A DNA stretch of 64,000 bases from Eledone cirrhosa (lineage: Eukaryota), in assembly GCA_964016885.1 (NCBI GenBank), contig OZ024740.1, positions 355,384,001-355,448,000 of the forward strand, written 5' to 3'. Below, in pieces: positions 7,235 to 20,032 of this stretch. Within the stretch, counting starts at the first letter, position 1. Each line of letters opens with the position of its first letter. The notes below the pieces were generated by a model. The model did not search any database and had not been told where the DNA came from. It was given only the letters and a program-made list of their open reading frames with translations. A program made the translations under genes and the position numbers.

Positions 7235-7452
7235 GAATTGCCATTATTTATTATGGTCACAGAAAGCTGGACAGATAAACGACTTGATCTAAAGAAGTTG
7301 CCTCAAAGTAAATCTTTATATCTAAGTGGACTTACAGGCTTGCTTTGGAGACCAAATTTAATCTTTGGCAATGTTGGAATCAAACAAGATGTTAAAATAT
7401 ATTCAAGGAAGCTCGTTCTCAAACCAAACAGTGAACTAACATTAACTTATCA
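7235..7452 (+). CDS. Cys-loop ligand-gated ion channel subunit, extracellular-domain exon (loops D/A/E)
   Basis: ctag|GAA...CA|gtaaga, 218 nt, phase 0 to 2. ELPLFIMVTESWTDKRL...LLWRPNLIFGN carries the WxDxRL and WxPxxxFxN family motifs. Confidence 0.9.
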
Positions 7453-7974
7453 GTAAGAATCGTTTTTTTATAATTTATTTTAAATAAATATTAGTAAATA
7501 ATGCAATGACAGATAAGAAAGGAATCTTGTCCTTGACAAGAAACCAGTCTATTTCAGGCAACATTACCAGGAGATCTGGTATATATTTCTTGACATGTAT
7601 ATGTTAGCTAAGAGACTTAGAATAATGTTTTCTGCTGAGGATCATAACAAAACAACAGTAAATAAGAAGTCATAACTTGTAGGTTGAGAATCTTATACCA
7701 TAACTTTTCAGCCATTTTATCTTTACATATTTTGTTTTCTATGTTGTGTGTATCTGGTTTAGAATAGATACACCATATCACTGCATGTTGTAAGAGGCAG
7801 CTAAAAGAGCTGACATCAGGAAGAATATTCAGCCCTAAAACATTGCATAAAAATGATCCCATGATGAATGTGAACCCTGCCATAGGGCCTGGAAGCCAAA
7901 AACCCTACCTTAGCAGAGGATAGGCTTGTAAAAAATCTTGTGTTTTGCATATTTTATTATCTGTGAAGTATCTA

Positions 7975-8485
7975 TTTCTTCTTCCCCCACTTATTCCTGG
8001 GAGGGTCATGGGGTAGGTCATCAAGCACACCTTCCAGAAGATCCTGTTAAAAGCAACCATTTCCAATTGACCTGACTGGATCTCCAAGTAAGACAACTGA
8101 GCTGTGGATGTTATCCAACCATCTTGCTCAGGTCTACCCCTGGGTTTCCTTGCCAGTTGGTTTTGCCCATAAAATCTGTCCAGTGATCCTTTCCTGGGAC
8201 ATTCTAACCACATGTTCATAATATTGGAGAAGTAACAGCTCTACCCGGAGTGAGACTCTGATCTCCAAGCTATGCACACTATCAAATAACATTACTTGAC
8301 AGACCCTTCGGAGGAACCTCATTTTGACGGCATGTATTAGCAATTCTATTTTTTTAGTCATTACACAAGATTCATAGCCATAAGTAAGGATTGGCATGAA
8401 CAGTGAATTGTAGATAGAGTTTGGCTTTTACACCTACCTCTCTTCTTCTAGTGATCAAATGTTGAAGCTGGCACATTACTGCACC
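7975..8485 (-). mobile_element. Degraded RTE-clade LINE 3' fragment (family C)
   Basis: MPILTYGYES...EHVVRMSQERITGQIL. Related pieces at 9760-10330 (+), 40020-41130 (-) and 50328-50500 (-). Confidence 0.75.
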
Positions 8486-8557
8486 AGATTTCAAAATAAC
8501 TTTCTATATACTAAGTATCCATGTATTTACATATTTACATATTTGTGTATATTTCAG

Positions 8558-8640
8558 AGTAACTTTTCCAGTTTCTTGCCAAAAACACCTCAAGATATTT
8601 CCTTTGGATGGGCAAATGTGTACTATTAAGATAAAAAGCT
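8558..8640 (+). CDS. Cys-loop channel, Cys-loop exon
   Basis: tttcag|A...T|gtaagt, 83 nt. VTFPVS-CQKHLKIFPLDGQMC-TIKIKS gives C-x13-C with FPxD. Not in the ORF track. Confidence 0.93.
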
Positions 8641-9119
8641 GTAAGTATGTGTATATACATATTTTTAAAAATAATGATGATAATAACGATGATGATGATG
8701 GTGGTGGTTGTGTTGGTAGTGGTGATGATGATGATAACATGTGTGTATGTGTGTAGGTAATTTTACTCACATATCAACCAAAGGCTGTAGTAGAAGACAC
8801 TTGCCCAAGGTGACACTGTGTGGGACTAAACCTGAAGCCATATGGTTGTGAAGCAAACTCCTTAATTACACACCCATAGTATTTTAATGACTTTGAAACT
8901 GATAGGAGGGAGGGAGAAAGATATTCTTAGACAGAAGTCCTAGTGAAAATGCTTGTAACAAGGTGGATTAGGCTGAAGTTACACATCAGACAGCAACTAT
9001 TAGAGAGGATTTAAGCCATGGTATTTACAAAGGGGTTAGTTAGTATTTCTAACAACACTTCACTGTTCATCCAGTGGATTTGAAATATTTAGAGCAGAGT
9101 TTAGAACCATATTGTTCTA

Positions 9120-10330
9120 GAAATGCTAGTACATCCTCAGTTTTTTCAGAGAGTTCTCTAAACTTGAATGCAATAATATATGCATATCTGGTCCTGACCT
9201 CCCCATCATCCAGTGCTTCCCACCTTATCTTGTAGATTCAGCTGAACCTGCCAATTTTGTGGGATTTCTTGGCTTTAGGTAGTCTCAGGCAGCAGATAAC
9301 TAGATGATGATCAGTTGACAGTTCAGCCCCTATCTTAACATGAACATCCATCACTGAATTAAAGAGAATCAATTATTGATTTCTGTCCCCAATTCCCCTT
9401 ATACCATGTGTATTCATGGATGTCTTTGTACTGGAAGGTGTTCATAATAGAGAGCCCAATACTAAAACAGAGGTCTAGCAAGGGCTCTCAATTTGTATTT
9501 AGATTGGGGTCACCATTCCTTCCAATCCTTCCTTTTCATTTCAAGTGGTCAGTGCCAACATGTGCATTGAAGTCTCCCATAAGGATATATGACACAGTAT
9601 TAACTAAATCTAATGCTGCAGTGACTTCTTCAAAGAAGTATTCCAACTAGACTTGTTCTAGGTGTTGTAGGAGTATGGTATCAGCGAACAGCTTCTTGTT
9701 GACTTAAAGTCCATATATAAATGCCTTAGTTTTTGTGTTTAAATAAATAATGGTAAGTCAGAACTATTCAATATGAGTATCAGACTTTGCCAAAGGTGCA
9801 TATTGTCACTTCTCCTGTTCATAGATTTTATGAACAGGATTGACACGTGCAGCTGAGTGGAAGTGGTATTAAAACTGACAAGTGTAGGATCAGTGGGTGG
9901 AATTTACAGACAACATGGTACTACTTAATTCATTGGAAGGTGATCTCCAACATGCACTGGATAGGTTTGCTGCTGAGTACTGCATGGTAAGAATGAAAAT
10001 CAGTGCTGAAAAGACAGAGGCACTTGTCCTTTCAAGAAAGCCTGTGCAGTACACTCTGCATGTGAATTACACTGAAGGAGGTAGAGAAGTTCAAGTATCT
10101 CAAGGCCTTTTTCATGAGTGATGTAATAAAAGAAGCTGAATTAAATGAAAAACTGTTGAAGGTAGTGCAGTAATGCACTAGATTCAGCACTGTCATCTTC
10201 AGGAGAGAGGTAGGTGTAAAAGCCAAACTCACTATCTTCAATACAATGGTCATGAATCTTGGGTAATGACTGAAAGAATATGATTGCAAATAAAAGTGAC
10301 CAAAATTGGGTTGCTCTTAAGGATCTTTGA
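9120..10330. mobile_element. Degraded RTE-clade LINE pieces: endonuclease (minus, ~9120-9650) and RT (plus, ~9760-10330)
   Basis: Minus-strand MGDFNAHVG and TDHHLV motifs; plus-strand FTDNMVLL...LQHALDRFAAE. Confidence 0.7.
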
Positions 10331-18338: not shown

Positions 18339-18540
18339 TGACCACACTGTAAACATGGTTGGTTTTAGGAAGGGCATCCAGCTGTAAAAATTCAACCAAA
18401 ATACAGTTCCCTTTAAGCAAGGTACAGCATGGTCAACTGGTCCGACTTGTCTCATAGTGTGGATGACCCATCTAACCCATGCAATCATGGAGAAAATAGA
18501 TGTTAAACAGTGCTGCTGCTGATGATGAATATATATATGT

Positions 18541-18595
18541 ATGTATTCCTGATGATTTCATAGGAATGAAACAGTTCTAGTCTTGTAGAAGTCAT
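18541..18595 (+). ncRNA. Short or degenerate hammerhead ribozyme
   Basis: uuc CUGAUGA uuuc auag gaau GAAA cag uucuaguc uug UA gaa; followed by the ttgagtgc motif seen near other Penelope-like ends here. Confidence 0.55.
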
Positions 18596-18744
18596 TTCTA
18601 CATAAAATAAAGATGCCTATACTCTACTAACATATTGAGTGCCTTTTTTTATCTGTGGGCACCACTCGATATCCATTGGGAATCCACCCATGATTATACA
18701 TATATATTGAACCCAATAATACCAGTATAATAATAATAATAATG

Positions 18745-19052
18745 AAATTATTGTGTAAAGTGCTCAGGTGCACCACAACTCGTCAATATAGTACATAGAA
18801 TAATACACAAATGCCAGGGAAGTACATGTTTGTATGTGTTAGCTGTAGTGTTGGCGGATCTCGGGAAGCATGGAGGCCTTAAAGGATGCAGTGTCTCGAC
18901 AGCTAACAACTGATGCAGGTAGTTTGTTCCATGCTTCAGCAACTCTGAGCGTGAAAAAATGTTTCCGAAAGTCATGGGAACTGTGCTGTTTTCTTACTTT
19001 GTGGGCATGTCCACGTGTGTTAGACACATGGAAATCGAAAAGGCACTCAGGG
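18745..19052 (-). mobile_element. CR1-type LINE 3' fragment
   Basis: TRGHAHKVRK...RKHFFTLRVAEAWNKLPASVV is the typical CR1 ORF2 C-terminus. Confidence 0.85.
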
Positions 19053-19816
19053 TATACTAAGCGTTTGTTGACTCTTTAATTTAGTAGATTCACCCGTTTG
19101 GCCAATTCCAAGCACTATATTATTACCATCATCATCATTACTTTTGCATCAATTTTTCCATGTTGGCAGGTGTTCAACATGCCATTTGAAGCAGAATACT
19201 ATTTGTCATACCGTTCCTAATGCTAAATCTCAATTCATTTATCTATTTGATTATTGTAATGCAAAGAGAAATGAAGAAAGGAGTAGAGATAAATACACAT
19301 ATGTACATACATTTACATATACGATGAACTTCCTTACAGTTTCCATTTACCAAATGCACTCACAAAGCATTGGCCAGTTCAAGGCTATAGCAGAATGTTC
19401 AAGGTGCTAGGTAGTAGGGTAATACACAGACCACATGGTTTTGAAGCTATAGTACATACCACAATAGTTTTACTTTCAAAGAGTAAAGTCTTCTATATCT
19501 ACATACATTCTTCTCAACCTTTTTTCTTTCCTTTAATTAACTTAATTGCTTGTCTTTTAACTCTTAATAGACTGTAATGATTTACCAGAAAATATCTAAA
19601 AACGGGTGAGTTAATTCAAATATTTGTAGTGTCGTTACTATTAGACAAATTTTCGTTAAAATTTGTGGTATTTGAGTAAAGGTTTTAATTTTTAATGTGA
19701 TCCTGTCACAGTGTTATTTTGAACTTTTCAAGATTGTACTAGTGCAATTTCATGTAGTACGTCTTTCCTTCACAATCTGCATCGCATATAAGATTTTGAT
19801 TTTGTTTCTCTTTCAG

Positions 19817-20032
19817 TTTCCAAGCAGAGAGCAAGTAAATATACTTGACAAGAAAGAAAACCATGCAAACAGAATGGTTATAGAAAGGGATGTTGATAAA
19901 TACAAAATAACTGCCGATAACAATGAAAATGAAGGTAAACGAACTAACAAAGCTGACCGTTACTGCAGAGTTATCTTCCCTTGTGCTTTCATAGTTACCA
20001 ACATTATATATTGGGTGTGGCATTTTTGCTAA
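19817..20032 (+). CDS. Cys-loop channel, terminal M4 exon
   Basis: tttcag|TTT; ...KADRYCRVIFPCAFIVTNIIYWVWHFC-stop matches the DxxxRxxFPxxFxxxNxxYW M4 pattern. Confidence 0.92.
   Translation, partial: FPSREQVNILDKKENHANRMVIERDVDKYKITADNNENEGKRTNKADRYCRVIFPCAFIVTNIIYWVWHFC

What the first reader, a model, noticed from the sequence alone, without database searches (positions are those of the whole stretch)
7235..20032. Intact but highly divergent anion-type Cys-loop receptor with a remodelled ligand pocket
The five exons splice in frame, and the 83-nt and 138-nt exon sizes and phases match the GlyR/GABA-A gene layout, so this is not an intronless nAChR-derived chemotactile receptor. By eye against GlyR alpha1: loop D F63/R65 read M/T, loop B ESFGY reads KSFYY, both loop C cysteines of GlyR/GluCl are absent, and F207 reads W. 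Inference: it probably does not bind glycine or glutamate canonically. It may be an orphan, sensory, pH-gated or accessory subunit of a lineage-specific clade.
Basis: partly seen in the sequence, partly recalled or inferred. Interest (0 to 1): 0.75.

Follow-up and report, generated by a model that had tools for sequence, protein, structure and literature searches.

The report
Cephalopod chloride channel losing transmitter pocket
An intact gene of octopuses and cuttlefish encodes a fast-evolving relative of glycine and GABA receptors that keeps its pore but has lost the usual transmitter-binding residues and several gating residues, so it likely passes chloride without a classical neurotransmitter; this is untested.

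Summary
The gene is real. The five exons splice in frame, and three more upstream of the window complete an 8-exon, 418-aa ORF. It is single-copy here, with orthologues in Octopus, Argonauta and cuttlefish; the cuttlefish one is inferred to be transcribed. No orthologue outside these was found. It is on the anion branch, not a chemotactile receptor. Its sister group is unresolved.

More unusual is the clade-wide loss of near-invariant gating residues: the M1 proline (kept in 146 of 147 others), loop-A Asp and Cys-loop Met. The pocket is no better conserved than the rest of the outer domain (12/23 vs 73/170), unlike paralogues (45/48), while M2 is almost fixed (20/22).

Best reading (0.4): a transmitter-independent chloride channel, tonically open or pH/ion-tuned, like fly secCl/pHCl-2. 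Rivals: accessory subunit, novel-ligand receptor. A preprint already reports unnamed cephalopod anion-branch clades; the match could not be checked.

The parts
7235..7452 (+). Coding exon 4 of 8 (aa 80-152): loop D (M86, T88 for GlyR F63, R65), loop A (N120 for D97, I122 for F99), loop E (K138, V140, T150). Exons 1-3 lie outside the window at G000:C1:355373590-355373663, 355375862-355375959 and 355377752-355377816.
8558..8640 (+). Exon 5 (83 nt): Cys-loop C159-C173 with FPLD; K161 replaces the conserved Met; loop B K178
11728..11865 (+). Exon 6 (138 nt): end of loop B, loop F, beta9 and loop C, with no loop C cysteines
15831..16195 (+). Exon 7 (365 nt): beta10, pre-M1 R239, M1-M3 and start of the intracellular loop
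15905..15907 (+). T251, at the position of the M1 proline (GlyR P230)
   Evidence: Thr in 5 of 5 clade rows; Pro in 146 of 147 others
15962..16027 (+). M2 pore helix: -2' A, -1' A, 0' R, 6' I, 9' L, 13' T
   Evidence: 20 of 22 positions identical in all five clade sequences
16028..16069 (+). M2-M3 loop: Pro and Tyr (GlyR P275, Y279) kept, followed by a 4-residue insertion
19817..20032 (+). Exon 8: end of intracellular loop, M4 and stop codon

Best explanation
This is an intact, single-copy, fast-evolving anion-branch Cys-loop subunit of octopods and cuttlefish that likely forms a chloride channel working without a classical transmitter, predicted to be tonically open or tuned by pH or ions. 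Shown: the gene, its orthologues, loss of the amino-acid agonist motif, loss of the M1 proline, loop A Asp and Cys-loop Met, and a nearly fixed M2. Inferred: anion selectivity (from -1' Ala and 0' Arg), self-assembly, uncoupling of gate from pocket, and a non-synaptic, possibly secretory role like fly secCl/pHCl-2.
For: Pocket positions are no better conserved than the rest of the outer domain between octopus and cuttlefish (12/23 vs 73/170, p=0.50), whereas two paralogue pairs keep 45/48 vs 272/349 (p=0.007). M2 is 20/22 identical in five sequences vs 35/69 for M1, M3 and M4 (p=8e-4). Of 57 near-invariant family columns the window protein has lost 13, O. sinensis 14 and cuttlefish 11, against a median of 3. 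Loop A D97 is N/K/K (acidic in 134 of 144 others, basic in 0 of 144) and R119 is V/V/I; that this pair holds GlyR shut is recalled (only the title of Todorovic 2010 was seen). The outer domain is 44% identical between octopus and cuttlefish vs 77% and 82% for paralogues, which is easier to reconcile with self-assembly than with slow-evolving partners (inference). Three copies of the O. sinensis orthologue scored 0.39 vs best control 0.00 (runs agree in at least 83% of contacts, pLDDT at least 68; mark reached by 21/30 solved pairs and 0/23 single chains in microbes, 17/29 and 0/30 in eukaryotes, only 1/7 with no older relative). Solved homologous pentamers exist, so this pass may be from memory. 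Precedent: secCl is a highly divergent, lineage-specific, constitutively open homomer of secretory tissue (PMC6522505 passages).
Against: No functional or tissue data. The 9' Leu gate, Cys-loop Pro-x-Asp, pre-M1 Arg and M2-M3 Pro/Tyr are kept, so coupling may persist. P230A in GlyR only raises EC50 five-fold, and the ELIC Ala mutant is unchanged (PMC9607081 passages). Some pocket residues are fixed across the clade (E70, K178, F180, Y181, Y182, Q223, G225), which could serve a new ligand. The pocket test has only 23 hand-picked positions and little power. Other divergent rows lose 10-12 invariant columns too (P0083, P0071, P0077). The -2' Pro is Ala, as in GABA-A beta and GlyR beta, which mostly work in heteromers (recalled). 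The placement near nematode/arthropod rows may be long-branch attraction and is not used as support.
Confidence: 0.4

Rival explanations
1. A non-binding accessory subunit that joins heteromers with conserved cephalopod anion-branch subunits and changes their pore, kinetics or pharmacology.
For: Drifting pocket with a fixed M2; single copy; -2' Ala. It shares K157, loop D aliphatic/Thr and, with one gene, ESTAAR with a cephalopod paralogue group (K157 in 4 of 147 rows, all from that group). CG6927 is silent alone but gives a pH-sensitive channel with secCl (PMC6522505 passages).
Against: The outer domain evolves much faster than those of candidate partners (44% vs 77-82%). The homomer model passed, though possibly from memory. 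No heteromer was modelled.
Confidence: 0.27
2. A homomeric receptor for an unconventional ligand (an anion or zwitterion held by loop B Lys and loop G Glu, or an environmental chemical), an anion-branch parallel to chemotactile receptors.
For: E70, K178, F180, Y181, Y182, Q223 and G225 are fixed across octopods and cuttlefish; the charges are swapped relative to GlyR. Rapid outer-domain evolution is typical of sensory receptors (recalled).
Against: Single copy, whereas the chemotactile receptors of this genome form a tandem array on C11. No excess pocket conservation. Neither the Lys nor the Glu was among the confident interface contacts, which leaves the point open.
Confidence: 0.22
3. An ordinary glutamate-, glycine- or GABA-gated chloride channel, as its database names suggest.
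For: NCBI names: glycine receptor beta-type 4-like, glutamate-gated chloride channel alpha, GABRR. AU tests do not reject grouping with the GABA-A, GlyR or mollusc clades (p 0.20, 0.17, 0.11).
Against: It lacks the loop D Arg, loop A aromatic, loop C Thr and both glutamate-binding arginines (motif defined in PMC4338433). It is only about 25% identical to GlyR alpha1 in the outer domain. The automatic names disagree with each other.
Confidence: 0.04
4. A decaying or non-conducting protein under relaxed selection.
For: Long branch; loss of conserved residues; no full-length transcript-derived member in the octopus clusters.
Against: Intact 418-codon ORF with canonical splice sites, orthologues in five other named species, a nearly fixed M2, and 89 cuttlefish-type Logan contigs carrying the ORF.
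Confidence: 0.07

Closest known systems
Vertebrate GlyR alpha1 and GABA-A beta subunits
   Same: Best PDB sequence hits (about 1e-39) and fold matches of the O. sinensis model (pLDDT 83.8; Z 29.4, rmsd 1.8 over 326 aligned to GABA-A beta2). Cys-loop, pre-M1 Arg, -1' Ala, 0' Arg and 9' Leu kept.
   Different: About 25% identity in the outer domain; agonist motif lost; M1 Pro, D97, M140 and (in octopods) W239 lost; M2-M3 insertion; no intron within M1-M3.
Cephalopod GlyR/GluCl-like paralogues P0271, P0232/P0293, P0019/P0263 (loci L021, L023, L027)
   Same: K157, loop D aliphatic plus Thr, ESTAAR in P0271, and the same uninterrupted loop C-to-M3 exon ending in phase 0.
   Different: They keep loop C cysteines, M1 Pro and D97, and evolve slowly. 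Sister status is not shown (AU p 0.39 in the free search, 0.06 on a fixed backbone; nesting inside the group rejected).
'PSG unknown 1 and 2' (bioRxiv 10.1101/2025.06.15.659772, passages read)
   Same: Cephalopod-specific, uncharacterised anion-branch groups from venom-gland transcriptomes. Group 1 had 11 cuttlefish sequences; this clade is well represented in cuttlefish-type contigs.
   Different: Identity with this clade could not be checked because the supplements are closed; the text gives no residue analysis.
Drosophila secCl/pHCl-2/CG6927 and mite SsCl (PMC6522505, PMC13065796, passages read)
   Same: Highly divergent, lineage-restricted anion-branch subunits without a classical agonist; the proposed functional analogue.
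   Different: Arthropod clade; SsCl keeps the PAR motif; no named member was in my trees; activity is shown for them and not here.
Octopus chemotactile receptors (CRT1; PDB 8eis, 9e6b)
   Same: Cephalopod-specific, fast-evolving Cys-loop proteins with altered pockets.
   Different: CRs here are long single ORFs in a tandem array; 19% identity to the O. sinensis orthologue, E 1e-6; this gene has 8 exons and one copy.

Membership tests
Cys-loop pLGIC | LBD plus four TM helices, C-x13-C loop, pre-M1 Arg | tested here: met
Cys-loop pLGIC | M1 proline (stated to be present in all pLGICs, PMC9607081) | tested here: not met
   Thr in 5 of 5 clade rows; Pro in 146 of 147 others. An exception within the family, not grounds for exclusion.
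Anion-selective branch | Closest to GABA-A/GlyR; -1' Ala and 0' Arg | tested here: met
   -2' is Ala, as in 16 of 147 others
Anion-selective branch | Measured chloride selectivity | not testable with these tools
   needs electrophysiology
Glycine receptor | Amino-acid agonist motif and loop B Glu | tested here: not met
   I122, T88, K178, G225; 3 of 6 on a lenient score, cuttlefish 2 of 6
Glycine receptor | Loop C disulfide | tested here: not met
   K219 and Q230
Lophotrochozoan GluCl | Loop A Arg plus agonist motif (PMC4338433) | tested here: not met
   G/G/V where gastropod P0273 and P0259 have Arg
Ecdysozoan GluCl | Loop G Arg plus loop D Arg (PMC4338433) | tested here: not met
   Glu and Thr/Ser
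GABA-A subunits | Clade membership by tree | tested here: inconclusive
   not grouped in the ML trees; AU p 0.198
GABA-A subunits | Intron within M2, as in this genome's four GABA-A-like genes | tested here: not met
Chemotactile receptors | Single coding exon, tandem array, nAChR-derived | tested here: not met
   8 exons, one copy, 19% identity of the orthologue to a CR
secCl/pHCl-2/Alka/HisCl group | Phylogenetic membership | tested here: inconclusive
   Best placement is beside a nematode row and two unnamed rows (95/90), but 32 of 73 placements were not rejected; no named pHCl or HisCl was in the set
secCl/pHCl-2/Alka/HisCl group | Ligand-free or pH-dependent chloride current | not testable with these tools
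   needs oocyte recording
PSG unknown 1 or 2 | Listed in that paper's tree | not testable with these tools
   bioRxiv supplements closed

The most novel reading that the evidence does not exclude
Coleoid cephalopods evolved, independently of insects, a Cys-loop chloride channel whose gate is uncoupled from the transmitter site and which works without the 'universal' M1 proline. It would supply the chloride conductance of a secretory epithelium such as the venom gland and be the clade reported as PSG unknown 1.
Probability: 0.15. Interest if true: 0.72.

Novelty: new variant of a known kind. Interest (0 to 1): 0.45.

Why it matters
If it conducts, it is a natural Cys-loop channel that has done without the M1 proline and loop A Asp since octopods and cuttlefish split (about 270 Myr, recalled), which gives a direct test of gating models. 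It would also be a second, independent case of a neurotransmitter receptor turned into a transmitter-independent chloride channel. Orphan divergent anion-branch subunits are common in invertebrates, the gene already has database models, and nothing functional is shown, so interest is moderate.

Tried and rejected
dN/dS could not be run: no orthologous coding DNA was available. Only 3 of 12 differences in a 141-nt relative's contig were listed, two synonymous and one A>S; this is too few to use.

RNA in the window's organism: no RNA holder listed. Laying runs X1, X2, X3 and X6 on 7150-11950 was swamped by repeats and listed no exon joint. On exon 7, X1, X2 and X6 each gave one short contig inside the exon and no joint. 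None of this is used as evidence.

Sister group: FastTree on 152 rows flagged long branches meeting. IQ-TREE PMSF on 45 and 38 rows gave different neighbours. AU tests rejected none of four groupings. A count of 28 rare shared residues found no row sharing more than 4.

A K178-E70 cross-subunit salt bridge was considered; neither residue was among confident contacts, so it is left open. ESM Atlas gave only generic family clusters. Tandem copies or duplicated exons: none found in the window plus 200 kb upstream or genome-wide (few candidates scored). Squid, Vampyroteuthis and Nautilus orthologues were not seen, which does not show absence.

Literature: five accession numbers gave 0 papers; topic searches found no description of this gene. 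Supplements of two bioRxiv papers (41 octopus channels screened; PSG tree) are closed and may include it. Todorovic 2010 is not held. Three look-ups of earlier scan findings gave nothing relevant.
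Full report
Gene structure. Fetching 200 kb upstream and searching with the orthologue found three more coding exons 10.4, 8.1 and 6.2 kb before the window. The whole CDS is 1257 nt, 418 aa, with a weakly hydrophobic N-terminal stretch and four membrane helices. No second copy was found in the 3.0-Gb genome: the membrane exon finds itself and eight paralogues at 34-41% (20 candidates scored), and exon 4 finds only itself (3 scored).

Orthologues. Searches returned O. 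sinensis (P0001), O. bimaculoides (P0002), O. vulgaris (P0005), Argonauta (P0003) and a cluster containing Sepia pharaonis (P0004, P0153-P0159). The window protein is 67% identical to P0001 and 43% to P0004, so the window is from an octopod (inference). Among the best 150 of 4928 hits of a full HMMER scan, rows outside the clade were 23-35% identical, apart from one 41% fragment. Six cuttlefish-type proteins lie on 89 Logan contigs of at most 2445 nt. P0099 and P0153 start and end at the octopod exon boundaries, so the cuttlefish gene has introns and those contigs are inferred to be spliced mRNA. In the two S. pharaonis genome models M2 is frameshifted, while the matching transcript-type P0155 is intact.

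Family. PDB sequence hits are GABA-A beta and GlyR alpha. The AlphaFold model of P0001 (pLDDT 83.8) matches GABA-A and GlyR chains. A chemotactile receptor from this genome (L036, identified) is a single long ORF and only 19% identical to P0001. The clade is supported 100/100 on a very long stem. Its sister is unresolved: AU p 0.11 with the mollusc GlyR/GluCl-like group, 0.20 with GABA-A, 0.17 with GlyR and 0.39 with a cephalopod paralogue group; 32 of 73 placements were not rejected. Exon layout agrees with the eight GlyR/GluCl-like paralogues (no intron in M1-M3; a phase-0 donor after M3, clear in 7 of 8) and not with the four GABA-A-like ones; this may be ancestral. Labels of unnamed rows (GABA-like, GluCl-like) come from motifs I recall; only P0085 was verified.

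Comparison set. The 147 other rows are the 330-520 aa proteins and from the lower part (P0228 onward), plus five shorter mollusc ones; multi-domain and partial models were dropped.

Pocket. The agonist motif defined in PMC4338433 (first two of five parts read) is not met, nor is either glutamate-binding arginine. But 37 of 147 others score as low, and K157 occurs in 4 of 147, all from three cephalopod paralogue genes that also have loop D Ile/Thr. Pocket positions (my choice, from recalled GlyR literature) are 12/23 identical between octopus and cuttlefish vs 73/170 elsewhere; two paralogue pairs keep 45/48 vs 272/349. The outer domain is 44% identical between the groups vs 77% and 82% for those paralogues.

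Gating and pore. The M1 proline is Thr in all five clade rows and Pro in 146 of 147 others. PMC9607081 (passages) says it is present in all pLGICs, essential in nAChR and 5-HT3R, and worth five-fold in GlyR EC50; PMC4813548 (passages) agrees for GLIC. D97 is N/K/K, M140 is K in all three full-length rows (0 of 147 others), W239 is Gly in octopods, and the M2-M3 loop has a 4-residue insertion. In all, 11-14 of 57 near-invariant columns are lost against a median of 3, though three other rows lose 10-12. Kept: both Cys-loop cysteines, its Pro and Asp, pre-M1 Arg, 0' Arg, 9' Leu, 13' Thr and M2-M3 Pro/Tyr. M2 is 20/22 identical across five sequences vs 35/69 for the other helices (p=8e-4). The hydrophobic 6' residue is not unusual (Leu or Ile in 69 of 147).

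Mechanism. A constrained pore with a drifting pocket and altered coupling residues fits a channel that no longer waits for a transmitter. Fast change across the outer domain fits self-assembly better than partnership with slow-evolving paralogues (inference). A three-copy model of P0001 scored 0.39 vs best control 0.00, with at least 83% contact agreement and pLDDT at least 68, but it may pass by likeness to solved pentamers. The precedent is fly secCl, a constitutively open homomer of secretory tissue, with CG6927 active only as a heteromer (PMC6522505 passages), and mite SsCl (PMC13065796 passages). I put this reading at 0.4, accessory subunit at 0.27, novel ligand at 0.22, decay or non-conducting at 0.07 and canonical transmitter at 0.04. 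None is tested.

Prior work. The gene has automatic database models under conflicting names. bioRxiv 10.1101/2025.06.15.659772 (passages) reports two uncharacterised cephalopod-specific anion-branch groups in venom glands. bioRxiv 10.1101/2025.04.02.646353 (first two of ten parts and passages) screened 41 octopus channels and collapsed the GABA-A-like branch in its main tree figure. Both supplements are closed and may contain this gene. PMC13174522 (passages) covers the nAChR side. PMC13103399 was seen as abstract only. Searches found no description of this gene.

Verdict. A real, intact, coleoid-restricted variant of a known family. The pocket alone is ordinary for invertebrate orphans; the loss of gating residues with a fixed pore is the notable part. 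Interest 0.45.

Noticed in passing
window 37164-37346, minus strand: Exon of cytochrome b-c1 complex subunit 8 (UcrQ, E 2e-19), the neighbouring gene, about 17 kb beyond the stop codon.
   Followed up: partly
window 6175-6465 / 6578-6868 and 2980-3176 / 3631-3827: Two near-perfect inverted repeats (291 nt 98%; 197 nt 99%) in intron 3, the first ending about 370 nt before exon 4. They would form long hairpins in the pre-mRNA, possible RNA-editing substrates (inference).
   Followed up: no
L021, L023, L027 (G000 C4:374.79 Mb, C4:375.70 Mb, C1:76.22 Mb): Three slow-evolving cephalopod anion-branch paralogues whose named orthologues have a conserved non-canonical pocket (loop B Lys, loop D Thr, loop E Arg, loop C Glu). 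They look like better candidates for an unknown ligand than the gene studied.
   Followed up: partly
window 17657-18345: 79-bp tandem repeat, 8.7 copies, 97% matches, in intron 7.
   Followed up: no
G000 C11:23.62-23.92 Mb (L036, L037): Tandem array of about 17 long single-ORF Cys-loop genes; one checked is a chemotactile receptor.
   Followed up: partly
window 30163-32017, 43712-45345, 46771-49907: Several broken copies of a LINE-type retroelement (endonuclease, reverse transcriptase, PHD finger).
   Followed up: no
P0153, P0154 vs P0155: The Sepia pharaonis genome models have a frameshifted M2 while the matching transcript-type protein is intact; probably an assembly or model error.
   Followed up: partly
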